From: Candidatus Campbellbacteria bacterium
GTDB taxonomy: Bacteria > Patescibacteriota > Minisyncoccia > Phycocordibacterales > EsbW-18
Reading direction: 5' to 3'
Assembly (NCBI GenBank): GCA_016699465.1
Contig: CP064977.1
Coordinates: forward strand, 542,503-606,502
Length of the DNA stretch: 64,000 nt
Positions 29,506 through 51,360 of this stretch are shown in pieces. The notes beneath the pieces are model-generated. The model had not been told where the DNA came from and searched no databases. It saw nothing but the letters and a program-made list of their open reading frames with translations. The position numbers were made by a program, and so were the translations under genes. The first letter of the stretch is position 1; every line of letters begins with the position of its first letter.

Positions 29506-31740
29506 TTACCTTCTAGATCCCCCTCGATATCCTCCAGAACCACCAGGACGGCGGAAATCTCCACCAGAACGGAAGTCTCCTGATGGTGCTGCACCTTCCT
29601 TCAAACCTTTGCGAACTGCAAAGTCAGGGTCTGCATCCTTAATGGAGAGTTTAATCTTCCCTTCCTCACCCAGTTCTTTGATTATGACGGGAACCATGTC
29701 TCCAACGTTTGCTACCCCATCCATTGATGCAAGACGAAATGGTGCGATCTCAGAAATGTGTACTAATCCCTCGGTGTCCTTCATTCCAGAAAGAGGAATT
29801 TCATCACCCATGCGGACAAAGAGACCAAAGTCGGCAATGCGTGTGACAACACCTTCAAATTTTTCACCAACATTGTATTCACGCGCAATTCCTTCAATGA
29901 TTTTCTTTGTTTTTTCTGCACCTTCAACATTTCCCGTGATGAATACGGTCCCGTCTTCTTCAATCGTAATTTCTGTTCCGGTGAGTTCACGAATTTGGTT
30001 GATGGTCTTTCCCCCACCACCAATCACGGCACCAATGAATTCTTTTTTAATTTTTGTGACGAGAATACGCGGTGCATTTGGATTCATTTCTGCTCGTGGT
30101 GCAGGAAGCGCCTCTGCGATTTTATCTAAAATGTGGAGGCGCGCCTTCTTCGCTTTTTCAAATGCTTCTGGAAAAACAGAAAGTGGAACTCCAGCAACCT
30201 TTACATCCATTTGCATTGCAGTCACACCATCACGTGTTCCGGCAACTTTGAAATCCATGTCGCCGTAGTGATCTTCTGGTCCTTGAATGTCGGTCAGCAC
30301 GCGGAAGCTGGTTAGCTGACTAGCTTCATTAGCTTCTAGAACAACTCCCATTGCAATACCAGCAACTGGCGCGAGGATTGGTACACCTGCATCAAGAAGT
30401 GCCAGCGTTCCTCCGCACACAGAACCCATTGATGATGAACCGTTTGATGACATCACTTCTGACACAATACGAATCGTATAAGGGAAGGTTTCTTTGGGAG
30501 GAATAACAGCAGAAAGGGCTTTTTCTGCAAGTGCCCCGTGTCCAATCATGCGGCGATTTGTTCCACCCATACGTCCTGTTTCTCCTGTTGAATATGGAGG
30601 AAAGTTGTAGTGCAGCATAAAACTTTTTGCTCCTTTGACCTCCATCCCTTCCATTTCTTGAACTGCTTCTGGACCACCGAGCGTGAGTGCTGCGAGTACG
30701 TGTGTTTCACCTCGGTAGAACACACCCGCTCCGTGAAGCATTGGTGCAACGCCTCCTGCTTGCGTGTAGATTTCTCGCACTTGATCAAAGTCTCGGTTGT
30801 CGGGACGTTTGCCGGCGAGGATTCCAACATCAAACACTGCTTCAACTTTTTCTTCAAAAAATAAATCAGCAAGTTCACGACTTTCATCTGGTGCACTTGT
30901 TTTGAGGAGTTCGTGCCATACGTGGTGGAGTTCGCCCACTTTCTCTCCTCCGGAAATGCCACAGAACACAGCGCTCTCAAGTTGCGGGGCAATCTCTTTT
31001 TCAAACAATGCGAGTGCTGCGTCGGAGAGCGTTGGAAATGTGAATACTTTTTTCTCTTTTCCTAATTCTTTGATGATGTTGTTTTGGAATGTTTCCAATT
31101 TTGTAATTTCCTCAACTGCTTTAGTGAGTCCTTCGATGATGATGTCCTCGGGAACTTGGTGTGCTCCTGTTTCAATCATGTTGACCTTCTGATCTCGTCC
31201 GCAGACAAGTAAATCAAGTACGTTTGTTTTGCGTTGCTCGTAGTTCGGGTTGAGTATCCACGCACCTTCAGGAGTTCTCCCCAGTCGTACTGCACCAACT
31301 GGACCTGCCCATGGAATATCTGACACACCGAGTGCAAGTGATGCGGCAATAGTTGCAATAACATCTGGGTCGTCCTCTCCAATAGAAAGAATAGTAGTGA
31401 CTACTTGTACTTCAATACGAAGGCGTTGATCAAAAAGTGGGCGTACGGTGCGGTCAACAATGCGACCAGAGAGGATTGCTTCGTCCGACGGCTTCCCTTC
31501 TCGGCGCATGTACTTACCTCCAAGAATTTGTCCTGCCGCATAAAACTTTTCTTCATAATCAACAGTGAGAGGAAAATAATCTATTCCTTCACGCTCTTTT
31601 GAACCCATGACCGCAGTGGCAAGAACGGCAGTGTTGCCATAGCGAACAATCACGGAACCATTCGCCTGCATGGCGAGGTCGTTAAACTCTGCGGAGAGGG
31701 TTTTTTCACCAAAAACCGTCTCGAATGTTTTACTTTTCAT
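29506..31740 (-). CDS. pnp: polyribonucleotide nucleotidyltransferase (PNPase)
   Basis: 744 aa. Two RNase PH-like domains, KH and S1 domains (…GKIKLSIKDADPDF…), C-terminal RGG-rich tail. Confidence 0.9.
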   Translation of the reverse strand: MKSKTFETVFGEKTLSAEFNDLAMQANGSVIVRYGNTAVLATAVMGSKEREGIDYFPLTVDYEEKFYAAGQILGGKYMRREGKPSDEAILSGRIVDRTVRPLFDQRLRIEVQVVTTILSIGEDDPDVIATIAASLALGVSDIPWAGPVGAVRLGRTPEGAWILNPNYEQRKTNVLDLLVCGRDQKVNMIETGAHQVPEDIIIEGLTKAVEEITKLETFQNNIIKELGKEKKVFTFPTLSDAALALFEKEIAPQLESAVFCGISGGEKVGELHHVWHELLKTSAPDESRELADLFFEEKVEAVFDVGILAGKRPDNRDFDQVREIYTQAGGVAPMLHGAGVFYRGETHVLAALTLGGPEAVQEMEGMEVKGAKSFMLHYNFPPYSTGETGRMGGTNRRMIGHGALAEKALSAVIPPKETFPYTIRIVSEVMSSNGSSSMGSVCGGTLALLDAGVPILAPVAGIAMGVVLEANEASQLTSFRVLTDIQGPEDHYGDMDFKVAGTRDGVTAMQMDVKVAGVPLSVFPEAFEKAKKARLHILDKIAEALPAPRAEMNPNAPRILVTKIKKEFIGAVIGGGGKTINQIRELTGTEITIEEDGTVFITGNVEGAEKTKKIIEGIAREYNVGEKFEGVVTRIADFGLFVRMGDEIPLSGMKDTEGLVHISEIAPFRLASMDGVANVGDMVPVIIKELGEEGKIKLSIKDADPDFAVRKGLKEGAAPSGDFRSGGDFRRPGGSGGYRGGSRR

Positions 31741-31935
31741 ACCTTGTTACGCGAATGTGCGCGAATGAGAATGCACGCAGATTAACGCAGATTATAGGAG
31801 CTCGTCTTCACATTGCAGATCTGACTTTTGACGTGTCCTCGGCCGAAGGCCTCGGGTGCCTGTTCAAATCCGTATATGCAAAGGCGAGCAATTACCCCTT
31901 TGTAATACTGAAAATATAGCACAAAACACGCTAGT

Positions 31936-31957
31936 GGCTAATTCGTACGAATTAGCC
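31936..31957. repeat. perfect 22-bp palindrome ggctaattcgtacgaattagcc (member of a recurrent hairpin family)
   Basis: Self-complementary. Near-identical copy ggctaattcatgcgaattagcc at 45155-45176. Confidence 0.6.
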
Positions 31958-32235
31958 TGTATACAAGAAGCCCCACAGAAGCGCGGGGCTTCTTGTGGGG
32001 GGGGGTGAAAGAGCTGCGGTTATTCAAGCCATCGGTCTGTGGTTCGATTGGAGCCGTCGGCGTCGCCTCGGGGTTGTTCGAAAGAGGATTCTCCATATCG
32101 ATATGAGTATAGCAAAGTGGGAGGCGTACGGGGGCGTTGCCTTGGTGGTTAGTGTCACTGATTGTCTTTTTGTGTTTTGTGTGGAGAATGGTTCTTGGAA
32201 TGAGGTTCTTCGGGTTCGTGAAAGGAGCTGAGAGT

Positions 32236-32418
32236 ATGGGAGAAGGAAAAACGCCAAGTGCGCGGGTTCAGGAGTATTTGAATAGCGATCAGCCCTCCCG
32301 GTACGTGGTGTTGTACGGAGTGAGGGGTCTCTTCGACCACCTCCCACCCTTTGCCAGCCTCAAGCGGGCATATGCGATGTCCAAGGCGCGTCGTCCGAGG
32401 GCATTGCACAAGAAGTGA
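32236..32418 (+). CDS. hypothetical small basic protein (60 aa) in GC island
   Basis: AGGAG RBS 8 nt upstream of ATG. Terminator hairpin ccccggaccaggttgtccgggg+T-run at about 32441-32468. Confidence 0.3.
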   Translation: MGEGKTPSARVQEYLNSDQPSRYVVLYGVRGLFDHLPPFASLKRAYAMSKARRPRALHKK

Positions 32419-32577
32419 GAGTGGGGGGGGCAGAGTTCCCCCATGCCCCGGACCAGGTTGTCCGGGGTTTTTAGTTCAAAACCAAGGCGTTGTCTTGGTT
32501 GTTGACTTGTCATTTGGCGCGAGCGTGTGTAGAGTGGTGCTTGGACTTGGTCTTCTTACTCGCTAGGGAGGTGTCGA

Positions 32578-32826
32578 GTGCTTGACGAGCGCGACGAGTA
32601 CACTTGGGCGGCAGGGGCGCGGAAGAGACACCGCGAGCGGGGGTGTTTTGGTCACAACCCCCCGCCGGGAACCCCGTCAATTCCGTCTGTGTTTGACGGT
32701 TACCCGACGCCGAGCAAGTGGCGCCGCATCGGGGGAAGTGGCAATGCCGTCAGCTCCGCGGTGGGTGGCGAAGAGCCTGCCCAGACCCCCGAGGAACCGG
32801 AAGATGTTGTTGGTGCCCCCGTGTGA
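32578..32826 (+). CDS. hypothetical small protein (GTG start) in GC island
   Basis: GGGAGG RBS 7 nt upstream of GTG. GC-rich hairpin downstream at about 32886-32925. Weak. Confidence 0.25.
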   Translation: MLDERDEYTWAAGARKRHRERGCFGHNPPPGTPSIPSVFDGYPTPSKWRRIGGSGNAVSSAVGGEEPAQTPEEPEDVVGAPV

Positions 32827-32932
32827 ACGGGGGTTTCGTTTTGTTTGTATGAGGTGTTGCTCTGGGTTTGAATAAAAAAGGAAGCCCCGCGCGATGCGCG
32901 AGGCTCGTGCGGGGGGGGCGAGGATGAAACGG

Positions 32933-33355
32933 TTACTGCCACCGGTCGTAGTAGTACCAATAGAACATCTCTGCGACCTTCTCCGGCTCATCTCGTCCGG
33001 CGATTTGGTCGAGACTTTCTGCTAGATCCTTCTGTGAGAGGTAATCACGGCTAGCGCCCGCGTACTTCACGAGGAACATGGGCGTACCATCATCTAGCGG
33101 TTCTACTGGGTTGATGATGGCAATCAGGGGAGGGCTCGAGATTATTCCCACCGCGGGAAACATGACGTGGTTGAGCTTTTGCTCCATCTCGGCCGTATGG
33201 ACCTTCGCAGCTCTTGTTGTGGCGGGGTCAGGTCCCGTGGCGAGTGTTTTCCAGTTGGGCACTACCCAGTAATACATCATAAACATGATGCAAACCAGGA
33301 AGAACCCCGCAGACACCTTCACGGCGAAGCGAAACCGTCTTGTGTTTGAGTCCAT
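32933..33355 (-). CDS. single-pass membrane hypothetical protein (141 aa) in GC island
   Basis: Start at MDSNTRRF with GGGAGA RBS. TM FFLVCIMFMMYYWVV. Preceded by conserved 80-bp promoter/operator element. Confidence 0.45.
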   Translation of the reverse strand: MDSNTRRFRFAVKVSAGFFLVCIMFMMYYWVVPNWKTLATGPDPATTRAAKVHTAEMEQKLNHVMFPAVGIISSPPLIAIINPVEPLDDGTPMFLVKYAGASRDYLSQKDLAESLDQIAGRDEPEKVAEMFYWYYYDRWQ

Positions 33356-33384
33356 TTTTCTCCCTTGGCCGAAGGCCTTGCGCA

Positions 33385-33464
33385 CTGCATTTTTGTACGA
33401 CAACGAACAACCCAAATCCGCGCAGATTCTGCGCTTAAAATACAAAGAAGTCAATCCGAGGCAA
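33385..33464. repeat. 80-bp conserved upstream element, copy 1 (putative promoter TTGACT...CAGAAT with palindromic operator GCGCAGA-T-TCTGCGC)
   Basis: Identical apart from a GC dinucleotide to copy at 34465-34546. Lies immediately 5' of the 32933-33355 gene on the minus strand. Confidence 0.7.
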
Positions 33465-33529
33465 CGCCTCCGATCAACAAAACAAAGCGCCGACCTCGGG
33501 GAGGTCGGCGTTGGAAGAGGTACATCTGA

Positions 33530-34471
33530 TCAGTCGGCCTTGTTGGTCCCGAGCTTGGCGAGCGCCCACTCGATCCGCCCGCGCCGCTCGAGCGCCCGGT
33601 ACACCTTGTGCTCGATGTGCCCCACGACGGGGCCGAGCACGAGGCCCACCAGCGCGTAGGCAACGAGGTTCTCGTTGAGCCAAGCTCCCACCGCCATGGC
33701 GATGGACAGCGAGAACAGGGTTGCCAACGCCGCCGCTCGCCGTCCTTCCTCGTTCGTGTACTTCACGAAGAGAAGGATGGTGCGGGTGAAGGCGGAGAAC
33801 AACTGTAGGAGGTCACGCAGGATCAGTGTGGGGTGTGCGAGGAGCTCCCGAAGATCTTCGGCGCAGGCCGAGAGGGTGTGGGTGAGACTCTTCGCCAAGG
33901 CCTTGATGAGCCAAAGTAGCGCCCTGCCACCCCAGTACGCAACGGCAATCGGATTGAGGTATTTCAGGAGGGCCTTTCTGTAGAGAGCAACTATGAACCT
34001 CCTAGTAGGAAGGTCGTCAAACGGCCACAACTCCATAGCCGAAAGAAGAAAACCAAATACTGGGGCCAGAAAGGCACCAAGCGCGATTGCTCCGGGCAAT
34101 GTGTTGGCCAAGTTGTCGAACAACCAGAGGGCGCTTGTCATGTACAGGTTGAAGAAGAAAGAGAGGAGGGTCATCCACACGGACAGAGTCAGATAGACTT
34201 TTATCCGTTGCATCTCCTCCGGCATACCGACCATCGTCTCCTTGACCGCGCGCACGAAAGCGACGCACGCGCTCTGCCAGTCGTAGGCGATCCATCCCAC
34301 GACGGCTCCGACGATGGCGGCCAGGGCGAGCGACGCCCACGGCCAGCCGAACTGGGCCACGAAGGCCAGTCCGAGCAGTACACCTGTGAGGCATCCCGTG
34401 AGAATCCCCCAAAACGGACTCTTTTGCACGACTTCCCTTCCTTTCTCGGCCCGTAGGCCATCGAACTGCAT
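33530..34471 (-). CDS. polytopic integral membrane hypothetical protein (313 aa) in GC island
   Basis: At least 7 predicted TM segments, high-GC codon usage. Preceded by conserved 82-bp promoter/operator element. Confidence 0.5.
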   Translation of the reverse strand: MQFDGLRAEKGREVVQKSPFWGILTGCLTGVLLGLAFVAQFGWPWASLALAAIVGAVVGWIAYDWQSACVAFVRAVKETMVGMPEEMQRIKVYLTLSVWMTLLSFFFNLYMTSALWLFDNLANTLPGAIALGAFLAPVFGFLLSAMELWPFDDLPTRRFIVALYRKALLKYLNPIAVAYWGGRALLWLIKALAKSLTHTLSACAEDLRELLAHPTLILRDLLQLFSAFTRTILLFVKYTNEEGRRAAALATLFSLSIAMAVGAWLNENLVAYALVGLVLGPVVGHIEHKVYRALERRGRIEWALAKLGTNKAD

Positions 34472-34546
34472 TTTTGTACGACAACGAACAACCCAAATCC
34501 GCGCAGATTCTGCGCTTAAAATACAAAGAAGTCAATCCGAGGCAAC
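34465..34546. repeat. 82-bp conserved upstream element, copy 2
   Basis: tgcatttttgtacgacaacgaacaacccaaatccgcgcgcagattctgcgcttaaaatacaaagaagtcaatccgaggcaac. A third, degenerate copy lies at about 34945-35030 upstream of the 34604-34927 gene. Confidence 0.7.
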
Positions 34547-34603
34547 ACCTTTGTTCAACAAAACAAAAGCCCCGCGCGAGTGCGGGGCTCGTGCGGGGGC
34601 GCT

Positions 34604-34927
34604 TCAGTCGTTGATTGTTGTGATGGTGAACGGGCTCACCAGAATCGCTTCTGATGCCCCATCGAGTTCGACCGCCACAATTCGTTCGCTTCCCCCATTC
34701 CCGAGATTCCCGTTGCTCCAGATACCAAGGACCTTTCCTTTGAGTCCTTTGGGCAGTTGAGCTTCAGCGGTGGTGATGAACCGATCACCCTCGCGAATGA
34801 CTCGCGTGCTACCTCGTGGAATGATTCCGGCGTAGAACTCGGCGCTATCGAGGATGAGATCTCCCCACATGCAGCGCTTCAGAGTCTCGCCTTCTCGTAG
34901 TTGAATTTGATTCCCGGATTCTGACAT
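34604..34927 (-). CDS. small hypothetical protein (107 aa), paralog of 35078-35395
   Basis: MSESGNQIQLREGETLKRCMWG...IREGDRFITTAEAQLPKGLKGKVLGIW aligns with MSDVQEIRK...GETTSRCLWG...IRIGDRVVSRGIWYIPKGSTGTVVEI. Own promoter-like element and terminator (gccccgccgacgttctgtcggcggggc at about 35042-35071). Confidence 0.45.
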   Translation of the reverse strand: MSESGNQIQLREGETLKRCMWGDLILDSAEFYAGIIPRGSTRVIREGDRFITTAEAQLPKGLKGKVLGIWSNGNLGNGGSERIVAVELDGASEAILVSPFTITTIND

Positions 34928-35077
34928 CGCCCCGCTCCTTGACCCGTAGGCCTCAGTGCTGCGTTTCTTGTACGACAACGAACACGTAAATCTGCGGTGA
35001 TTTTGCACTTCATGTGAGAAGAAGTCAATCCATCGACAAAAAAGAAGCCCCGCCGACGTTCTGTCGGCGGGGCGGGG

Positions 35078-35395
35078 TTAGACACTTTTCGGAAGGATGT
35101 CGTCCGGAATAACATACGCGCGTATGGTTGCCCCATCGAAGAGAACGTTGATGAGGTCTCCTGGAGAGAGTGTGTTCATCTCGATCTCTACCACTGTTCC
35201 GGTACTTCCCTTTGGGATGTACCAGATGCCTCTAGAGACAACGCGGTCTCCAATTCGAATGGTGTATCCTTTTGTGTTGAAGCCGACGCACTTTCCGTTC
35301 GAAACGATGAAAATCCCCCACAGACATCGTGAGGTGGTTTCTCCCGCCAGGAGAACCGGCTCAACTTCTTTGCGGATTTCTTGTACGTCGCTCAT
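35078..35395 (-). CDS. small hypothetical protein (105 aa), paralog of 34604-34927
   Basis: See paralog. Upstream TTGACA-17-TATTGT promoter-like sequence. Downstream terminator. Confidence 0.45.
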   Translation of the reverse strand: MSDVQEIRKEVEPVLLAGETTSRCLWGIFIVSNGKCVGFNTKGYTIRIGDRVVSRGIWYIPKGSTGTVVEIEMNTLSPGDLINVLFDGATIRAYVIPDDILPKSV

Positions 35396-35520
35396 GGGAC
35401 TCCTTTCGAGTCTCTGTGTTGAACAACAATTCTGGCGAAACAATAGTCCGATATGCGTGCTTTGTCAACGAAGATGAAGAAGCCCTGCCGACGTTCTGTC
35501 GGCGGGGCGTTCTTCTTTTG

Positions 35521-36075
35521 TTATTTCTGTTCTTGCGGAGGTCGTTTGCGATCGTTGCGTCCACCTCGGTACCCCATGAGGTACTTACGAGGGTCTTCGT
35601 CGAGGTTTGTGAAATGATCTGCAGCCTCGATGAGTTTTGCGGATGTTGAACGTCCGAATGCGATTGCTTCTACTTGGCACCCTTCACTAATTTGAAGATA
35701 CTGCACAAGTGGAACATAGTCTCCGTCCCCAGATACAATGACAACGGCATCCAATTTTGGTGCGAGTTTCACTGCGTCCATGGCGAGTCCAACGTCCCAG
35801 TCGGCCTTTTTTGCACCTCCTGCGAAAATTTGTAAATCTTTTGTCTTCACCTCAATACCCATCTTGGTAAGAGCTTCAAAAAATGTTTTTTCTTCACCTG
35901 ATTCAGTTGAAATAACGTATGCGATTGCACGAACGAGCGGTCGCTCCCCTATTGCATCTTTAACGATTGCTGCGAAATTAACGCGAGCGTTGTAGAGATG
36001 TCGTGCACTGTGATAGAGATTTTGCGCGTCGATAAAAACGGCAACGCGCTGTGCCTTCTGTTTGATTATGGTCAT
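35521..36075 (-). CDS. NYN-domain (LabA-like, PIN-related) putative RNase
   Basis: RVAVFIDAQNLYHSARHL...VVIVSGDGDYVPLV matches the NYN domain acidic core. 184 aa. Confidence 0.7.
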   Translation of the reverse strand: MTIIKQKAQRVAVFIDAQNLYHSARHLYNARVNFAAIVKDAIGERPLVRAIAYVISTESGEEKTFFEALTKMGIEVKTKDLQIFAGGAKKADWDVGLAMDAVKLAPKLDAVVIVSGDGDYVPLVQYLQISEGCQVEAIAFGRSTSAKLIEAADHFTNLDEDPRKYLMGYRGGRNDRKRPPQEQK

Positions 36076-37485: not shown

Positions 37486-38412
37486 ATGATCAAAGATGTT
37501 GAAACATTAAAAAGAGAATTTCTTGAATACCTCGAGATTGAGCGAGGTCGTTCTATTAAGACAATAGAAAACTACGACCGGTACCTCTCTCGATTTATTG
37601 CATTTTCGAAGGTGTCCAAGACGAGTGATATTACCGAGACATCTGTTCGTGAATTTCGTTTGTGGTTGAACCGCCAAACATCGCGTGTCCAGAAAAAAGA
37701 TGCAGGTAACACCTTGAAAAAGAATACACAGAACTACTACCTCATCGCCCTCCGTGCATTTTTAAAGTTTCTACGTAAACGAAACGTGGAAACACTTCAA
37801 CCAGAAGCAATTGAACTCGCAAAAGTCGGCGAACGTGATCTTGATTTAATTACACCAGTGGAGCTTGGTCGTATTATGGATGCCCCAAAAGGAAGCTCTG
37901 TGCAAGCACTGCGAGATAAGGCGTTGTTGGAGCTACTCTTTTCAACAGGTATGCGTGTATCGGAGCTCGTATCACTTCCGCGCGATGTTGATTTGTCGCG
38001 AGGCGAATTCTCTATTCGTGGAAAGGGTGAAAAGGTTCGTGTGGTCTTCGTTTCCCCTTCTGCACGAGATGCGGTTAATGCGTATTTAGAAAAAAGAACT
38101 GACATGGACGATGCACTCTTTATCCAGTTTGGAAAGGCGTCAAAAAATGCAAAAGACTTGAGGTTAACGGCTCGTTCTGTTGAGCGTTTGGTAAAACGAT
38201 ATGCAGTGAAATCAGGTATCAGTAAGAAAGTAACACCACACGTCATTCGCCACTCGTTTGCGACCGATTTACTTGAGAATGGTGCTGATTTACGAAGTGT
38301 GCAGGCACTCCTCGGTCATGCAAATATCACCACGACGCAAGTGTACACGCACGTGACCGACAAACATTTGAAAGAGGTGCACAACAAATTCCACGGCCAA
38401 CAAAAACAATAG
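37486..38412 (+). CDS. tyrosine recombinase XerC/XerD family
   Basis: 308 aa. N-terminal core-binding domain. C-terminal catalytic ...HVIRHSFATDLLENGADLRSVQALLGHANITTTQVYTHV (R..HxxR..Y). Confidence 0.85.
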   Translation: MIKDVETLKREFLEYLEIERGRSIKTIENYDRYLSRFIAFSKVSKTSDITETSVREFRLWLNRQTSRVQKKDAGNTLKKNTQNYYLIALRAFLKFLRKRNVETLQPEAIELAKVGERDLDLITPVELGRIMDAPKGSSVQALRDKALLELLFSTGMRVSELVSLPRDVDLSRGEFSIRGKGEKVRVVFVSPSARDAVNAYLEKRTDMDDALFIQFGKASKNAKDLRLTARSVERLVKRYAVKSGISKKVTPHVIRHSFATDLLENGADLRSVQALLGHANITTTQVYTHVTDKHLKEVHNKFHGQQKQ

Positions 38413-38436: not shown

Positions 38437-39617
38437 GCTTTTATTTTTTATGAAAAAATATTACATACTCGTACTTTTTGTCTGTGTTATAAGTCCACTC
38501 TTTGCTCGTGCGGAAGACGTTATTTTTCAAAAAGTACTTCGAACCTATGATCAAAATGGATATAACTCTTCCTGGGGCTCCCGTGCTTTTGAAGGTACAG
38601 CGTGGCTTTCAGGAGGAGATTTGATAGTCACAGGAAGTTGCAAACAGGACCACACAGGAGGCGCATTTCTCTTCGGAAGTGATGGTGTATATAAAGGAAT
38701 TGGAAACACATGTAGTGATACAAGCTCTATTAGGTTGGGCTGTTCGGAGGCGGGAGGATGTCAATTGGGGACCGCTATTGCTGAGCGCCCAGATGGTTCA
38801 ATTGTACGTTTAGGACAAAGCCGCAATTTTGTTCGACGCTCTCCTGCTGTCTACACTATTGCATCAGACGGGCTCTCGTTTGTATCTCGACTCTTTTTTT
38901 CAAAATCAAGCGATGAGTATATGTATCCCCAAGGTCCAGAAAATGACTGGAATACATGGGCAAGCTACTACGATCCTGTTGTTACCTCGGATGACATACT
39001 GGTGATGAGGAAAGGTGGAGATGGGTACTTTCCACAACTAGACCGTCTTGTTGCGTTTAGTCTGCCAGAGTTCGGTGCGCTGTGGACAAAAAATTTAACG
39101 GGAGAGATCGTTGGTGGTATTAAAGATATGTTCATTCAAACCAACGCACGAAATTATCCCAAAGAACTCGTTGTATATCGCGTGAGTCGTGGTGGGGTAA
39201 CTGAAATTGACCGAGAACCAATCAATGGATTATGGAAATCATCGTGGGGCACATCCGCTTTGAAAAAAGATCCTAGTGATGCATCGGTGTTTGCTATTAA
39301 AACAGGAACAGGTCCACGAGATACAAAAATAGTTCGCTACCGAGCGAGTGCTTCAGGTATACAAAAAATTGATGAGAGAACTATACCTAGTGATGTGTAT
39401 GGCGCTGACTTTTCAATCTTTGGTGACTACCTAGCATTTGCTACAGGTGGCCCTCGCGTGTGGAAGGGTACGAAGGAGCTAACGATTGGAAGCGCCCCTG
39501 CAGGCACACTGTGGAATGTTTCAAGTGTTTCGTTTGGTCGTGATGGAAAACTCGCCGTCGCAAATGCTAAAAATGTGTTGTTGTACGCGCTTAGTGGAAC
39601 GGTTACACCTCCGGTTT
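38437..39617. repeat. 1.18 kb direct repeat, copy A (covers 5' UTR and first about 390 codons of the secreted-protein gene)
   Basis: About 100% nucleotide identity to 39925-41107 except two single-base homopolymer length differences. Confidence 0.8.
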
Positions 39618-39793
39618 CCATTCCTCCACCAGGTGGCTCGGGGAAAGGTGCTCCATTATATGATTTGAAGTATGGGAATTGTACATTAAAGATGACTACG
39701 GGCGATGTTCAATTTAACTCACCCATCACAAGTGCATTTTTTAATTGTATGCTCAATAGTGCTCTTCAAGGATTTACAACAAGTAAACGCTAG
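38450..39793 (+). CDS. secreted hypothetical protein (447 aa), intact short paralog
   Basis: Signal peptide MKKYYILVLFVCVISPLFARA. Gly/Ser-rich beta-rich protein. 37 nt downstream of the recombinase gene. Confidence 0.7.
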   Translation: MKKYYILVLFVCVISPLFARAEDVIFQKVLRTYDQNGYNSSWGSRAFEGTAWLSGGDLIVTGSCKQDHTGGAFLFGSDGVYKGIGNTCSDTSSIRLGCSEAGGCQLGTAIAERPDGSIVRLGQSRNFVRRSPAVYTIASDGLSFVSRLFFSKSSDEYMYPQGPENDWNTWASYYDPVVTSDDILVMRKGGDGYFPQLDRLVAFSLPEFGALWTKNLTGEIVGGIKDMFIQTNARNYPKELVVYRVSRGGVTEIDREPINGLWKSSWGTSALKKDPSDASVFAIKTGTGPRDTKIVRYRASASGIQKIDERTIPSDVYGADFSIFGDYLAFATGGPRVWKGTKELTIGSAPAGTLWNVSSVSFGRDGKLAVANAKNVLLYALSGTVTPPVSIPPPGGSGKGAPLYDLKYGNCTLKMTTGDVQFNSPITSAFFNCMLNSALQGFTTSKR

Positions 39794-39924
39794 ATAAAAT
39801 TCAAGTACATCTCTAATAAGGCCCCGCTCAAGTACGAGTGGGGCTTTGTGTTCTTGTGTGAAGTAGGTCGAGAAGAATAGCGAACCAATATTTCACGGGG
39901 TACAATGTGTGTGTCATTATTCAT

Positions 39925-41107
39925 TTTTATTTTTTATGAAAAAATATTACATACTCGTACTTTTTGTCTGTGTTATAAGTCCACTCTTTGCTCGTGCGGA
40001 AGACGTTATTTTTCAAAAAGTACTTCGAACCTATGATCAAAATGGATATAACTCTTCCTGGGGCTCCCGTGCTTTTGAAGGTACAGCGTGGCTTTCAGGA
40101 GGAGATTTGATAGTCACAGGAAGTTGCAAACAGGACCACACAGGAGGCGCATTTCTCTTCGGAAGTGATGGTGTATATAAAGGAATTGGAAACACATGTA
40201 GTGATACAAGCTCTATTAGGTTGGGCTGTTCGGAGGCGGGAGGATGTCAATTGGGGACCGCTATTGCTGAGCGCCCAGATGGTTCAATTGTACGTTTAGG
40301 ACAAAGCCGCAATTTTGTTCGACGCTCTCCTGCTGTCTACACTATTGCATCAGACGGGCTCTCGTTTGTATCTCGACTCTTTTTTCAAAATCAAGCGATG
40401 AGTATATGTATCCCCAAGGTCCAGAAAATGACTGGAATACATGGGCAAGCTACTACGATCCTGTTGTTACCTCGGATGACATACTGGTGATGAGGAAAGG
40501 TGGAGATGGGTACTTTCCACAACTAGACCGTCTTGTTGCGTTTAGTCTGCCAGAGTTCGGTGCGCTGTGGACAAAAAATTTAACGGGAGAGATCGTTGGT
40601 GGTATTAAAGATATGTTCATTCAAACCAACGCACGAAATTATCCCAAAGAACTCGTTGTATATCGCGTGAGTCGTGGTGGGGTAACTGAAATTGACCGAG
40701 AACCAATCAATGGATTATGGAAATCATCGTGGGGCACATCCGCTTTGAAAAAGATCCTAGTGATGCATCGGTGTTTGCTATTAAAACAGGAACAGGTCCA
40801 CGAGATACAAAAATAGTTCGCTACCGAGCGAGTGCTTCAGGTATACAAAAAATTGATGAGAGAACTATACCTAGTGATGTGTATGGCGCTGACTTTTCAA
40901 TCTTTGGTGACTACCTAGCATTTGCTACAGGTGGCCCTCGCGTGTGGAAGGGTACGAAGGAGCTAACGATTGGAAGCGCCCCTGCAGGCACACTGTGGAA
41001 TGTTTCAAGTGTTTCGTTTGGTCGTGATGGAAAACTCGCCGTCGCAAATGCTAAAAATGTGTTGTTGTACGCGCTTAGTGGAACGGTTACACCTCCGGTT
41101 TCAATTT
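39925..41107. repeat. 1.18 kb direct repeat, copy B
   Basis: See copy A. Confidence 0.8.
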
Positions 41108-42522
41108 TACCACCGACGGGTGTGGGAAGTGGTTTTAATGGATTGCCTCCAGGAACAACCGAAAAAGAACTCACTACGGTAACAAAAAGTATTTTGCAAC
41201 AAATGGGAATTGGTAACTGTCCCCTTCCACCATCATCAGGTGCAACAATCAACACGACAGGACCAGCACAATTGAGTGCGTTTCTTAATTGTTTACTCCA
41301 AACATCACTAAGTGGTCCATATACAAGTCCTCCAATCTCATCAAATACACCAACATCACTGCAACGACATCCAATACCGCTGATGCCTCCTCAGGTATCA
41401 AACGCTGTTTCGTTAAGCAAGACGCTTATTACTCAGCCAGGATTTTCTGCTACTACAGGTTCATCTGATGTAGCACTAGTTGGTGCTCGGTGGGTTGATG
41501 GAAAATTTGTTCTCTCGAGTTTTTGTAGCGCTACTGGAAATAATAAAGGTCTCTGGATTTTCAGCGAGAGTGGCACGCAGATTGCCGAACGCAATGCGTG
41601 TCGTGATGCTGGTGAGGATCAAAATGGTTCCACAGATCACACGTGGGGCGTTACGCCAAACGTACAATTGGTTGGTAATGGTCAATTTCTAAAAGAAATG
41701 GGACCATACAATAATCGTCCACCACTTCTCTACCACGTTTCTAATGGCGATTTAATTTCCAAAGCGTGGAATGCGCGAGGAATGAGTGGTAATGGCACTG
41801 ATGTTACGAGTGACATAGCGGGAATACCTGGGTATGCAGTTGTTATTGAAAATGGAACGGACAATGTGCTCTATGCGTTGCCGGATTGGAATGTGCTCCA
41901 ACGTGTTTCAAGAAAGTTCCAACCAATTACGGGTGTCGGAAATTATATCGTCGGAACACCAACTCCTGGAAATAAAGATCTGGTTTTGTATAAGGTAGCA
42001 AATAACACATTGGAATTAGTAAACAAAGTAACGACGAATATTCGCCCTGTTGCTGCTGCAGTTGACCCGTCTTCAAACGGTACACGTGTTGGATTCTTGT
42101 TTATAAATGATGGTGGTACAGGAAAAAATCACGCAGATATCTACACTGTTGGTAGTACGGGGCTTAAGTTTGTAAAAAAGGTAACACTCCCTTCGACAAC
42201 AACATTTACCTCTACAGGATGGCAGAATGCATTTGCACTAACCGGTGAGTACGTTGCTTTCAATGATTGTGGATTACCTGCACTTCCTGCGCCTAGCGGA
42301 ACAGGAGACAATCTATCTTCTGCAAAATGCGGTCTCGCTGTTTTGAAAGGTACAACACGTATGACTGTACAACGAATACCTAATGCAACGACGAACGACG
42401 GTTCACAAATTCTTCCACCGGCTATTCGTGGTATTGCGATTTCTCCAAGTGGCGCTGTTATTGTTACAAATAGTTACGGTGCATACCTCTACAAAATTGG
42501 TGGAGGTGGTGTTGGCAACTAA
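39939..42522 (+). pseudogene. long paralog (about 860 aa if repaired) of the secreted protein, interrupted by two +/-1 frameshifts in homopolymer runs (T-run near 40380, A-run near 40748); alternatively phase-variable or sequencing error
   Basis: ORF track splits it into 39909-40490, 40406-40816 and 40717-42522. Each piece is 100% identical in amino acids to the corresponding part of 38450-39793, then continues into a unique about 470-aa C-terminal region. Confidence 0.6.
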
Positions 42523-50719: not shown

Positions 50720-50790
50720 GCGGGCATGGTTTAGTGGTAGAATGACTGCCTTCCAAGCAGTAGACGGGAGTTCGATTCTCCCTGCCCGCA
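50720..50790 (+). tRNA. tRNA-Gly (anticodon TCC), CCA not encoded
   Basis: Same acceptor/D/T arms as the GCC isoacceptor. Anticodon stem ACTGC/GCAGT loop CTTCCAA. Followed by terminator gccggatatgtgtccggc+TTTTT. Confidence 0.9.
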
Positions 50791-50950
50791 CAAACAAAGA
50801 AAAAGCCGGATATGTGTCCGGCTTTTTCTTATGTTTTGCGAGGTAGAGCAAACAAATTTCTTTGTTTGTGTGGAGAATCGAACGACGGAGCATGTTGCGA
50901 AGCAACTGTGAGTCGCGTCCAGCGAATCTTATGATCGAAGCGAATTAGAT

Positions 50951-50967
50951 ATCGCGGGACGATTCTC
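50951..50967. repeat. duplicated tRNA-Gly 3' end (17 nt, gattctccctgcccgca), att-site-like scar
   Basis: Exact copy of the last 17 nt of tRNA-Gly(TCC) 161 bp downstream of the intact gene. A further 12-nt partial copy lies at 51222-51233, adjacent to a repeated 22-mer gcgaattagatatcgcRggacg (50930-50951 and 51232-51253). Confidence 0.5.
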
Positions 50968-51360
50968 CCTGCCCGCACAGAAATAAAAATACTCCAGCAT
51001 CACGCTGGGGTATTTTTATTTCTGCCGTTGGAGAGAATCGAAAGTCGCAGGTGCGCGTCCTGTGGACGAGGAAGCACCGACCCAGTAGGTCAATGTACTC
51101 ATTGAGACGGGCAATCAGTAGATTGTGCCGAAGAAGGCTGAGAGAACACTTTGTATTTTTGAGCGTATGCGAAAAAATACTTAGTGATTTGTGGGCGATT
51201 CTCTTTGAAAAACTCGTGACTGATTCTCCCTGCGAATTAGATATCGCAGGACGGCTCTCCTTGTCCATAAAATTTTGTGATCAATTCTCCTAACACTTTA
51301 TTTTCTTAAAAACAAAAATACCACCATGCGGTGGTATTTTTGTATGTGAGACAATGAAGT

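What the first reader, a model, noticed from the sequence alone, without database searches (positions are those of the whole stretch)
33385..35040. Near-identical 80-82 bp promoter/operator module reused upstream of successive island genes
Two copies (33385-33464 and 34465-34546) differ only by one GC dinucleotide. A third, degenerate copy at about 34945-35030 keeps the GATTGACTTCTT and GTTCGTTGTCGTACAA blocks. Each copy sits directly 5' of a minus-strand gene. Each contains a TTGACT -35-like hexamer, a perfect inverted repeat GCGCAGA-T-TCTGCGC positioned where an operator would overlap the -10 region, and a conserved 5' UTR stem (ggccttcggcc). This looks like co-regulation of independent cassettes by one palindrome-binding repressor or activator, or alternatively a cassette-recombination site.
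Basis: seen in the sequence. Interest (0 to 1): 0.6.

Follow-up and report, generated by a model that had tools for sequence, protein, structure and literature searches.

The report
Repeated promoter-leader module in variable island
A roughly 110-base promoter-plus-leader sequence is reused in front of unrelated orphan genes in a small GC-rich variable island of an ultra-small (CPR) bacterium, much like the shuffling "regulatory cassettes" of T4-type phages; this is interesting but inferred only from sequence.

Summary
Windows 33384-33465 and 34465-34546 are 100% identical over 82 nt (106 nt at 95%), and a diverged third copy lies at 34926-35040. All three are read on the minus strand.

Each copy follows a terminator and has this order:
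- a short inverted repeat
- TTGACT, 17 nt, CAnAAT
- a leader of about 65 nt with the block GTTCGTTGTCGTACAA
- a GGCC-loop-GGCC hairpin, the Shine-Dalgarno site and the start codon

The genes served (A, B, C) are unrelated orphans. They sit in a 3.6-kb island of 56% GC (genome 44%) between the conserved NYN and pnp genes.

The same module occurs in three other assemblies (L001, L082, L083), always beside island cassettes, with genes and module variants paired differently. It is absent from 80 syntenic relatives, from viral contigs and from the rest of the window.

The -35, the -10, the 15 nt after the -10, the leader block and the hairpin are invariant, while the spacer varies. Neighbouring genes are saturated at synonymous sites.

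The perfect palindrome exists in only one module variant, so a palindrome operator is possible but unproven.

Best reading: a PeSL-like composite promoter/leader cassette that gives each orphan gene its own transcription unit and serves as a substrate for recombination. No integron features were found.

The parts
33356..33486 (-). Module copy A (type I), upstream of gene A. T-tract and short inverted repeat 33456-33486; -35 TTGACT 33449-33454; -10 CAGAAT 33426-33431; palindrome 33420-33434; predicted transcription start about 33417-33419; leader block 33393-33408; hairpin 33367-33377; SD 33360-33364.
   Evidence: nhmmer E 9e-33
34430..34567 (-). Module copy B (type I), upstream of gene B. -35 34530-34535; -10 34507-34512; palindrome 34501-34515; predicted start about 34498-34500; leader block 34474-34489; hairpin 34448-34459. 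34465-34546 is 100% identical to 33384-33465.
   Evidence: E 8e-34
34928..35040 (-). Module copy C (type II, no palindrome: GTGCAAAATCACCGC), upstream of gene C. -35 35023-35028; -10 CAAAAT 35000-35005; leader block 34968-34983; hairpin 34941-34952. It lacks the inverted repeat upstream of the -35.
   Evidence: E 9e-30
32933..33355 (-). Gene A: 140-aa orphan with an N-terminal membrane anchor. The homologue A' in L083 is driven by a type II module.
   Evidence: (dN/dS 0.14)
33530..34429 (-). Gene B: 299-aa multi-pass membrane orphan. The start is GTG at 34429 (ATG in the L082 homologue). The public annotation (QQR82265.1, 313 aa) starts at an ATG inside the module.
34604..34927 (-). Gene C: 107-aa soluble all-beta orphan, paralogue of gene D (36% identity).
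   Evidence: dN/dS 0.19
35078..35395 (-). Gene D: 105-aa paralogue of C, with its own unrelated promoter TTGACA-17-TATTGT (35440-35468) and no module.
33488..33510 (-). Intrinsic terminator of gene B, immediately 5' of module A.
34567..34590 (-). Intrinsic terminator of gene C, immediately 5' of module B.
35047..35073 (-). Intrinsic terminator of gene D, immediately 5' of module C. A near-identical hairpin at 35482-35508 follows the NYN gene, and the same hairpin follows NYN in L083.
   Evidence: (D5)
32882..32906 (-). Terminator of gene A, at the convergent junction with the plus-strand cassettes.
32129..32468 (+). Inverted cassette 'Plus1'. Degenerate module promoter (GGCGTTGCCTTGG 32133-32145, TTGTCT 32162-32167, GAGAAT 32184-32189); 60-aa basic protein gene 32236-32418; terminator 32445-32468. 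The homologous cassette in L083 lies in the opposite orientation relative to NYN and pnp.
32480..32834 (+). Inverted cassette 'Plus2'. Motif GGCGTTGTCTTGG 32486-32498; promoter TTGTCA-17-TAGAGT 32507-32535; 82-aa ORF 32578-32826; terminator 32815-32834.
32835..32880 (+). Truncated module remnant (T-tract, then GAGGTGTTGCTCTGGGTTTGAAT) with no gene behind it, abutting the terminator of gene A.
   Evidence: (I3); read from the sequence
31950..35510 (.). GC-rich (56%) hyperplastic island between pnp (29506-31740, minus) and the NYN gene (35521-36075, minus).

Best explanation
The repeat is a composite regulatory cassette: a sigma-70-type promoter fused to a conserved 5' leader of about 65 nt. It gives each orphan gene of a small, GC-rich, fast-turning-over island its own insulated transcription unit.

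Read on the minus strand, each unit has this order:
- the rho-independent terminator of the preceding gene
- a T-tract and a short inverted repeat (GGAGGCGTTGCCTCGG)
- the -35 ATTGACTT, then a variable 17-nt spacer
- AAGyGCAnAATC (the -10 is CAnAAT)
- a GC-rich discriminator (nnCGCn)
- a predicted start at G/A of GATTT
- the leader block GTTCGTTGTCGTACAA...AAyGCAG
- a GGCC-loop-GGCC hairpin abutting the SD, then the start codon

The same about 110 nt sit in front of unrelated genes, and similar terminators sit behind them. The copies therefore also act as portable homology. Recombination or gene conversion between them keeps copies within a genome identical, re-pairs module variants with different genes, and deletes, inserts or inverts cassettes. 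This is the behaviour described for PeSL cassettes in T4-type phage hyperplastic regions.

Shown here: the anatomy, the conservation pattern, the restriction to the island, and the reassortment.

Inferred: promoter activity, the start site, the role of the leader and hairpin in translation or stability, and recombination as the mechanism.

The palindrome over the -10 in the type I variant may add repression, or attenuate read-through. It is not a constant part of the module.
For: Anatomy and position: (three minus-strand hits TTGACT-17-CAGAAT/CAAAAT, each preceded by a predicted terminator).

Canonical TTGACA/TTGACT-16/17-TATAAT promoters are enriched elsewhere in the window (29 against 14.9 expected). 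Sigma-70-type recognition is therefore plausible in this organism.

Six full copies from three genomes align with invariant -35, -10 plus 15 nt downstream, leader block and hairpin. The spacer is variable, and indels are not multiples of three.

The adjacent genes A and C differ from their L083 homologues with dS 1.7-2.4 and dN/dS 0.14-0.19. The flanking NYN and pnp genes have dS 0.5-0.6. The invariant module blocks are therefore constrained, and the genes are real.

Independent occurrences:
- L001, a Saccharibacteria MAG, where the module sits directly after NYN with different cargo.
- L082, a 1039-nt contig that begins and ends inside the module and carries a gene B homologue.
- L083, with the order NYN - C' - X - Plus1' - A' - pnp and two module copies.

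Reassortment:
- Gene A has a type I module in the window and a type II module in L083.
- Gene C has type II in the window and another variant in L083.
- The Plus1 cassette is inverted between the two genomes.
- A truncated module lies at 32835-32880.
- L001's module is type I in its 5' half and C-like in its 3' half.

Concerted evolution: A and B are 100% identical over 82 nt next to unrelated genes.

Restriction: a profile search of 842 kb (the window plus 83 loci) finds only these eight instances.

The cargo genes are orphans.

The PeSL definition matches: a sigma-70 promoter, a stem-loop often overlapping the -10, an SD and start at the 3' end, location upstream of ORFans in hyperplastic regions, and recombination points (PMC2839356, PMC4122927).
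Against: - There are no expression data. The promoter, start site and terminators are consensus predictions.
- The -10 (CAGAAT) is sub-optimal.
- Only four sequences from one narrow lineage carry the module, so the conservation statistics are thin.
- Some identity may reflect recent exchange rather than selection.
- Recombination at the modules is inferred from different arrangements, not from mapped breakpoints in closely related genomes.
- The largest replacement seen (the centre of gene B) is inside a gene, not at a module.
- The function of the conserved leader block is unexplained. No conserved RNA fold was found.
- The rest of the 811-kb source genome could not be searched.
Confidence: 0.65

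Rival explanations
1. Operator model. The 7-1-7 palindrome GCGCAGA-A-TCTGCGC over the -10 is the binding site of a dimeric repressor or activator that co-regulates the cassettes. The promoter part is as above. This model adds to the best explanation rather than excluding it.
For: - The palindrome is perfect and exactly conserved in window A and B, in L001 and in L082, although the promoter spacer next to it differs in L001.
- It covers -15 to +1, the classic repressor position.
- A small, very basic 60-aa island protein (32236-32418, net charge +8, conserved in L083) is an untested candidate binder.
Against: - The dyad is lost in window C and L083 copy 4, where 23 nt are nevertheless identical between genomes. 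It is reduced to GCGC...GCGC in L083 copy 1. There are no compensatory changes.
- There is no other copy in the 64-kb window or in 80 related loci.
- No recognisable DNA-binding domain is encoded in the island.
- The invariant bases (GCAnAATC..CGC.GATTT) can equally be read as an 11-nt-spaced direct repeat, or as an extended -10 plus a GC-rich discriminator.
Confidence: 0.3
2. Cis-regulatory RNA leader. The conserved block GUUCGUUGUCGUACAA...AAyGCAG and the SD-proximal hairpin form a regulatory 5' UTR. It could be a protein- or sRNA-binding site, an RNase entry or protection site, or a translational enhancer. On this view the leader is the real reason for conservation.
For: - The leader block is invariant or nearly so in all seven leaders, although the flanking segments carry indels.
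- The GGCC/GGCC stem is kept with four different loops (UUC, UACG, AUC, AUUCAUU) directly before the SD.
- The island sits between genes for an NYN-domain protein (a family of predicted RNases; the role is my inference) and PNPase.
Against: - There is no thermodynamically unusual fold (z-scores -0.6 to +0.9).
- The alifold consensus is -2 kcal/mol with no covarying pair.
- No Rfam family comes near its threshold.
- Promoters of the same family in L001 (copies 2 and 3) and the plus-strand cassettes lack the block.
Confidence: 0.2
3. Site-specific cassette system (integron-like). The short inverted repeat 5' of the -35 (GGAGGC-GTT-GCCTCGG), or the terminator hairpins, are recombination sites used by the nearby Xer-type tyrosine recombinase (37486-38412) to capture and invert cassettes.
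For: - The motif GGYGTTGYCTYGG is confined to the island: 5 hits against 0.48 expected.
- In L083 one cassette carries the motif with an inverted core (GAGGCAACGCC), and that cassette is inverted relative to the window.
- A tyrosine recombinase gene lies divergently two genes away.
Against: - The recombinase scores as XerD/XerC/XerA. It falls below the integron-integrase cut-off (130 against 265 bits).
- It is conserved next to rpsO in all 80 relatives, with or without inserts, so it looks like a housekeeping gene.
- There are no RYYYAAC/GTTRRRY cores.
- Cassettes carry their own promoters and terminators.
- The inverted repeat is missing from copy C and variable in sequence.
Confidence: 0.06
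4. Non-functional repeat: a miniature mobile element (MITE-like), a duplicated gene 5' end, or an assembly artefact.
For: Two copies are 100% identical. The source is a metagenome-assembled genome.
Against: - There are no terminal inverted repeats or target duplications at the unit's ends (33381/33486) (read from the sequence).
- Copies always have the same orientation and distance relative to a start codon.
- Indels break every reading frame, and the downstream N-termini are unrelated.
- The module was recovered in three other independent assemblies.
Confidence: 0.03

Closest known systems
PeSL (promoter-early stem-loop) regulatory cassettes of T4-type phages (Arbiol et al. 2010, PMC2839356; Comeau et al. 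2014, PMC4122927)
   Same: - A small repeated composite motif made of a sigma-70-like promoter, a stem-loop that often overlaps the -10, and the SD and start codon of the next gene.
- It also carries a terminator function.
- Copies are concentrated in hyperplastic regions directly upstream of ORFans.
- Copies serve as points of exchange that insert, delete and swap genes between related genomes.
   Different: - This module is in a bacterial (CPR) chromosome, not a phage. No phage or viral match was found.
- The upstream region is GC-rich with a short inverted repeat, instead of AT-rich.
- A separate canonical terminator precedes each module.
- It has a conserved leader of about 65 nt with a 16-nt block and an SD-proximal hairpin, which PeSLs lack.
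- The -10 stem-loop is present in only one variant.
- There are few copies (3 plus degenerate ones) rather than about 50.
- Activity and mini-circles are untested.
Start-associated sequences (SAS/ESAS) of Cluster K mycobacteriophages (Pope et al. 2011, PMC3203893)
   Same: Conserved non-coding sequences repeated immediately upstream of the start codons of many unrelated genes. Some have an imperfect inverted repeat just upstream. Their function is unknown, possibly translational.
   Different: SAS is a short sequence at the ribosome-binding site of phage genes and carries no promoter. Here the repeat carries a full promoter and a long leader, and it lies in a cellular genome.
Integron cassette arrays
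   Same: A tandem array of small, mostly orphan, single-gene cassettes at one chromosomal spot, with cassette content differing between relatives and a tyrosine recombinase gene nearby.
   Different: There is no IntI-type integrase and there are no attC sites. Each cassette has its own promoter and terminator instead of relying on Pc. Some cassettes are inverted.
Operator overlapping the -10 of a repressed promoter (generic LacI/LexA/Arc-type logic; from general knowledge)
   Same: A 15-bp perfect dyad covers -15 to +1 in the type I copies.
   Different: The dyad is not conserved in other functional-looking variants of the same module. No cognate regulator and no additional genomic sites were identified.

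Membership tests
PeSL-type regulatory cassette | Sigma-70-like -35 and -10 hexamers with canonical spacing | tested here: met
   TTGACT-17-CAGAAT/CAAAAT, 9 of 12 matches, in all three copies. The hexamers and spacing are invariant in six copies while the spacer varies.
PeSL-type regulatory cassette | Stem-loop within or next to the promoter, able to terminate or attenuate upstream transcription | tested here: inconclusive
   - A 6-bp GC stem with loop AAU overlaps the -10 in type I (about -10 kcal/mol with flanks, z -1.6).
- It is absent in type II.
- It was not called a terminator by the scan.
- Separate strong terminators precede every module.
PeSL-type regulatory cassette | SD and start codon of the downstream gene at the 3' end of the motif | tested here: met
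PeSL-type regulatory cassette | Copies concentrated in a hyperplastic region upstream of ORFans | tested here: met
   All copies lie in 31950-35510. The NYN-pnp gap is variable across 80 loci. The cargo genes have no families and 1-2 homologues among billions of proteins.
PeSL-type regulatory cassette | Indel and replacement breakpoints between related genomes fall at the motifs | tested here: inconclusive
   Genes and module variants are re-paired, one cassette is inverted, and a truncated module is present. The compared genomes are too diverged in the island (dS about 2) to map exact breakpoints.
PeSL-type regulatory cassette | [quoted passage not shown] | tested here: not met
   The context is chromosomal, between rpsO/NYN and pnp. 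There are no viral or phage matches. The upstream element is GC-rich.
PeSL-type regulatory cassette | Demonstrated promoter and terminator activity; mini-circle formation | not testable with these tools
   This needs reporter assays and outward-facing PCR.
Integron | IntI-type integrase adjacent to the array | tested here: not met
   The recombinase at 37486-38412 scores: XerD 246 bits, XerC 242, XerA-type 233 (above its 220 cut-off), and integron integrase TIGR02249 130 bits against a 265 cut-off. It is conserved in relatives that lack the inserts.
Integron | attC sites (RYYYAAC ... GTTRRRY imperfect inverted repeats) 3' of promoterless cassettes | tested here: not met
   Inspection shows that cassettes end in GC-rich terminator hairpins with T-tracts and carry their own promoters. 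GTTGCCT/AGGCAAC do not fit the core consensus.
Dyad-symmetric operator of a dimeric regulator | Dyad symmetry maintained across functional copies | tested here: not met
   Perfect in 4 copies of one variant; 4+4 bp in L083 copy 1; absent in window C and L083 copy 4; no compensatory changes.
Dyad-symmetric operator of a dimeric regulator | Cognate DNA-binding protein and binding shown | not testable with these tools
   No HTH or other DNA-binding family was found in the island proteins. A 60-aa basic protein is only a guess.
Known cis-regulatory RNA (Rfam) | Match to a curated covariance model at gathering score | tested here: not met
   Only tRNAs reach gathering score. The best sub-threshold hits in the island are 16-24 bits against cut-offs of 37-120.
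MITE-like mobile element | Terminal inverted repeats and target-site duplication; orientation independent of genes | tested here: not met
   The ends of the 106-nt unit show no TIR or TSD. All copies have a fixed orientation and distance to a start codon.

The most novel reading that the evidence does not exclude
The island is a promoter-carrying cassette array with a dedicated exchange mechanism, an integron-like gene-capture system of CPR bacteria without IntI or attC. The short inverted repeat abutting the -35 (GGAGGC-GTT-GCCTCGG, found with an inverted core next to an inverted cassette in L083) and/or the terminator hairpins would be crossover sites. The conserved neighbouring Xer-type recombinase might use them. 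Divergent orphan surface and small-protein genes would then be swapped between lineages while arriving with a ready-made promoter and leader.
Probability: 0.06. Interest if true: 0.8.

Novelty: new variant of a known kind. Interest (0 to 1): 0.42.

Why it matters
If the reading is right, PeSL-style regulatory cassettes are not confined to T4-type phages. They would also organise a hypervariable chromosomal spot in an ultra-small, host-dependent (CPR/Patescibacteria) bacterium. Such genomes are otherwise streamlined, and little is known about how they acquire and express new genes.

The cargo includes a membrane-anchored protein and a multi-pass membrane protein. Their alleles are far more diverged than the core genome. 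These are the kind of genes expected to matter for host or phage interaction.

Practically, the module is a compact native promoter, leader and RBS part that could be tried in the emerging genetic systems for these bacteria. It also corrects a public annotation: the annotated start of gene B lies inside the module.

The limits are clear. The evidence is sequence-only, from four assemblies of one narrow lineage.

Tried and rejected
1. Riboswitch or structured leader: single-sequence folds are no better than shuffles. Alifold gives -2 kcal/mol and no covariation. Rfam finds nothing.
2. Leader peptide: the ATG in AAAATGCAG exists only in copies A and B. The others have ACG or ACGTAG.
3. Duplicated coding 5' end: rejected by frame-breaking indels and unrelated N-termini.
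4. Phage origin: three DNA-pattern scans and one protein scan of viral contigs, plus blastn and tblastn against 50,697 phage records, were all negative.
5. Defence or known families for the cargo: Pfam, PHROGs, PADLOC and NCBIfam gave nothing above their cut-offs.
6. Finding more copies through mis-called ORFs: a chimeric query of the six reading frames of the module found nothing.
7. Exact-protein look-ups of window proteins: these failed because the source genome is not in that contig collection. One search used a wrong start (one extra codon) and is uninformative.
8. Lineage-specific repeats in the NYN-downstream regions of nine other relatives: none.
9. Structure of the C/D family: the AlphaFold model was too poor to search (mean pLDDT 56), so no fold search was run.
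10. Integron reading: rejected.
11. An earlier coordinate for the gene B start (34432) was one codon too long. It is corrected to 34429 by comparison with L082.
Full report
**Observation.** The region was read on both strands and scanned for repeats.
- The two good copies share an exact 82-nt run, 33384-33465 = 34465-34546. Homology continues at 95% over 106 nt (33381-33486 vs 34462-34567).
Its first interval is just 2 nt shorter.
- A third copy (34926-35040) keeps GATTGACTTCTT and GTTCGTTGTCGTACAA exactly. It is 75% identical in between.
- The 15-nt palindrome is present only in copies A and B. Copy C reads GTGCAAAATCACCGC.

**Anatomy (minus strand).** Each copy begins right after the stem of a predicted intrinsic terminator: 33488-33510, 34567-34590 and 35047-35073. 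The order is then:
- a T-tract (TTTTGTTTTGTTGA)
- a short inverted repeat, GGAGGCGTTGCCTCGG, absent in copy C
- ATTGACTT, then 17 nt, then CAGAAT or CAAAAT
- a GC-rich stretch, then GATTT
- GTTCGTTGTCGTACAA, then AAyGCAG
- a GGCC-loop-GGCC hairpin
- the SD and the start codon

Canonical sigma-70-type promoters are also enriched elsewhere in the window.

**Genes served**.
- A: 32933-33355, 140 aa, N-terminal membrane anchor.
- B: 33530-34429, 299 aa, multi-pass membrane protein.
- C: 34604-34927, 107 aa, soluble.
- D: 35078-35395, a paralogue of C (36% identity), with a different promoter (TTGACA-17-TATTGT).
- The public annotation starts gene B at an ATG inside the module (P0001, 313 aa). The L082 homologue has ATG where the window has GTG at 34429, and it lacks the upstream ATG.

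**The island.**
- 31950-35510 has 56% GC against 44% for the rest of the window.
- It lies between pnp (29506-31740) and an NYN-domain gene (35521-36075). rpsO and a Xer-type recombinase gene lie beyond.
- Its left part holds two plus-strand cassettes, 32129-32468 and 32480-32834. Each has a degenerate promoter of the same family, an SD, a small ORF and a terminator.
- A truncated module with no gene lies at 32835-32880.
- The 13-mer GGYGTTGYCTYGG upstream of the -35 occurs five times, all in the island, against 0.48 expected.

**Relatives.** One genome-collection scan found one more copy. It is in a Candidatus Saccharibacteria MAG (L001), directly after the NYN gene of a syntenic xerC-rpsO-NYN locus. 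The palindrome is intact and the cargo genes are different.

Eighty metagenomic loci with an NYN homologue keep the xerC-rpsO-NYN-pnp order.
- The NYN-pnp gap ranges from 35 nt to more than 3 kb, with varied small genes.
- None has the module, homologues of the cargo or repeats of its own.

Protein searches found almost nothing.
- Gene B has one homologue, 57% identical.
- The C/D family has two.
- Gene A has one real homologue.

Two of those led to DNA.
- L082 is a 1039-nt contig that starts inside a module leader, carries the gene B homologue and its terminator, and ends inside the next module.
- L083 has flanks 88-90% identical to the window. Its island reads NYN - terminator - module - C' - X - Plus1' - module - A' - pnp.

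NCBI labels the source genome Candidatus Campbellbacteria. The nearest representative locus is labelled Saccharibacteria. I only claim CPR/Patescibacteria.

**Conservation pattern.** Six full copies from three genomes were aligned.
- Invariant: ATTGACTT; AAG.GCA.AATC..CGC.GATTT; GT.CGT.GTCGT.C; AA.GCAG; and the GGCC stems.
- Variable: the 13-nt promoter spacer and the segments between blocks. The latter carry 1-4-nt indels, which excludes coding.

In the window-L083 comparison, NYN and pnp have dS 0.5-0.6 and dN/dS 0.03. Genes A and C have dS 1.7-2.4 and dN/dS 0.14-0.19. Three things follow:
- The cargo genes are real and under purifying selection.
- Their alleles are much older than the core divergence, so the island is exchanged rather than inherited vertically.
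- The invariant module blocks stand out against saturated neighbouring sites.

**Reassortment.**
- Gene A is behind a type I (palindromic) module in the window and behind a type II module in L083.
- Gene C is behind type II in the window and behind a third variant (GCGCACAATCCGCGC) in L083.
- L001's copy is type I in its 5' half and like copy C in its 3' half.
- The Plus1 cassette has opposite orientations in the window and in L083.
- The terminator next to pnp in L083 matches the window's 31963-32008. The window therefore carries about 900 nt of extra inverted cassettes between two similar terminators.
- Within the window, A and B are identical over 82 nt beside unrelated genes. This points to recent duplication or gene conversion.

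**The palindrome.** It is exact in four copies of one variant, across three assemblies, even where the adjacent spacer has changed. That hints at function. But it is not kept in the other variants, there are no compensatory changes, and the non-palindromic type II sequence is itself identical over 23 nt between two genomes. The invariant bases fit three alternatives:
- an extended -10 plus a GC-rich discriminator and start region
- two 11-nt-spaced direct half-sites (GCAnAATC / GCnGATTT)
- a dyad operator in one variant only

As RNA, the type I element would form a 6-bp GC hairpin. The scan did not call it a terminator.

**RNA-level tests.** The leaders fold no better than shuffles. The consensus fold is negligible and shows no covariation. 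Rfam gives nothing. The small SD-proximal hairpin is kept with four different loops.

**Comparison with known systems.** The closest description is the PeSL of T4-type phages (PMC2839356, PMC4122927). A PeSL is a repeated sigma-70 promoter plus a stem-loop, most often overlapping the -10 or lying between the boxes. It ends in the SD and start codon, is concentrated upstream of ORFans in hyperplastic regions, and acts as a recombination point.

The differences are:
- a chromosomal CPR context with no phage signal
- a GC-rich upstream inverted repeat
- separate terminators
- a long conserved leader
- few copies

SAS/ESAS motifs of Cluster K mycobacteriophages are a second, looser analogue.

The integron reading fails on both the integrase and attC. 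A MITE reading fails on the ends of the unit and on its fixed orientation.

**Verdict.** The repeat is real and non-coding. It is most likely a promoter-plus-leader cassette reused, and recombined, in front of orphan genes of a hyperplastic island. The palindrome-operator idea is possible for one variant but unproven. I rate it a new variant of a known kind and of moderate interest. The limits are sequence-only evidence and a very narrow distribution.

Noticed in passing
window 38439-41400: A tandem duplication of about 1485 nt. It is 100% identical in 300-nt stretches, with spacing drifting 1486/1485/1484. The first copy is an intact 447-aa ORF (38450-39793), a conserved neighbour of xerC that is also present in L001. 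The second copy is split into a 193-aa ORF and a fused 601-aa ORF. This is either a recent duplication with 1-nt indels or long-read assembly errors.
   Followed up: partly
window 50720-51270: The 3' end of tRNA-Gly(tcc) (CGATTCTCCCTGCCCGCACA) is repeated 187 nt downstream (50957-50980) and again, degenerate, near 51232-51266. These look like att-site remnants of integration and excision at the tRNA.
   Followed up: partly
window 33530-34429 vs P0002/L082: Gene B is mosaic. The N-terminal 60 aa and C-terminal 80 aa are almost identical to the Logan homologue. The central 160 aa or so are nearly unrelated, with a 16-aa length difference. The middle of the membrane protein has been replaced or is diversifying.
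   Followed up: partly
window 31741-35520 and loci L002-L081: The gap between the NYN-domain gene and pnp is a general insertion hotspot in this group, ranging from 35 nt to more than 3 kb. In several lineages it holds 89-aa plus 92-aa gene pairs and genes of about 224 aa. Those inserts are usually AT-richer than their flanks. In the module-bearing lineage the insert is GC-richer instead.
   Followed up: partly
window 32236-32418 and 32578-32826; L083 1498-1673: The small plus-strand island proteins share a S/GVFDG/HLPPF-like motif. One of them is 60 aa with net charge +8. They may form a family of small basic proteins. Function is unknown. I noted the basic one as a speculative candidate nucleic-acid binder.
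   Followed up: no
window 31840-31860 (minus strand, pnp leader): The pnp 5' region contains CGAGGCCTTCGGCCGAGG. This hairpin has the same GGCCTTCGGCC core as the SD-proximal hairpin of module A. The whole pnp upstream region is about 88% identical in L083.
   Followed up: no
L003 2397-3168: The second-closest metagenomic relative has a 772-nt, 58% GC insert between NYN and pnp. It carries one opposite-strand ORF behind a TTGACA-17-TATTGT promoter, the same hexamers as the promoter of window gene D. It has no module.
   Followed up: no
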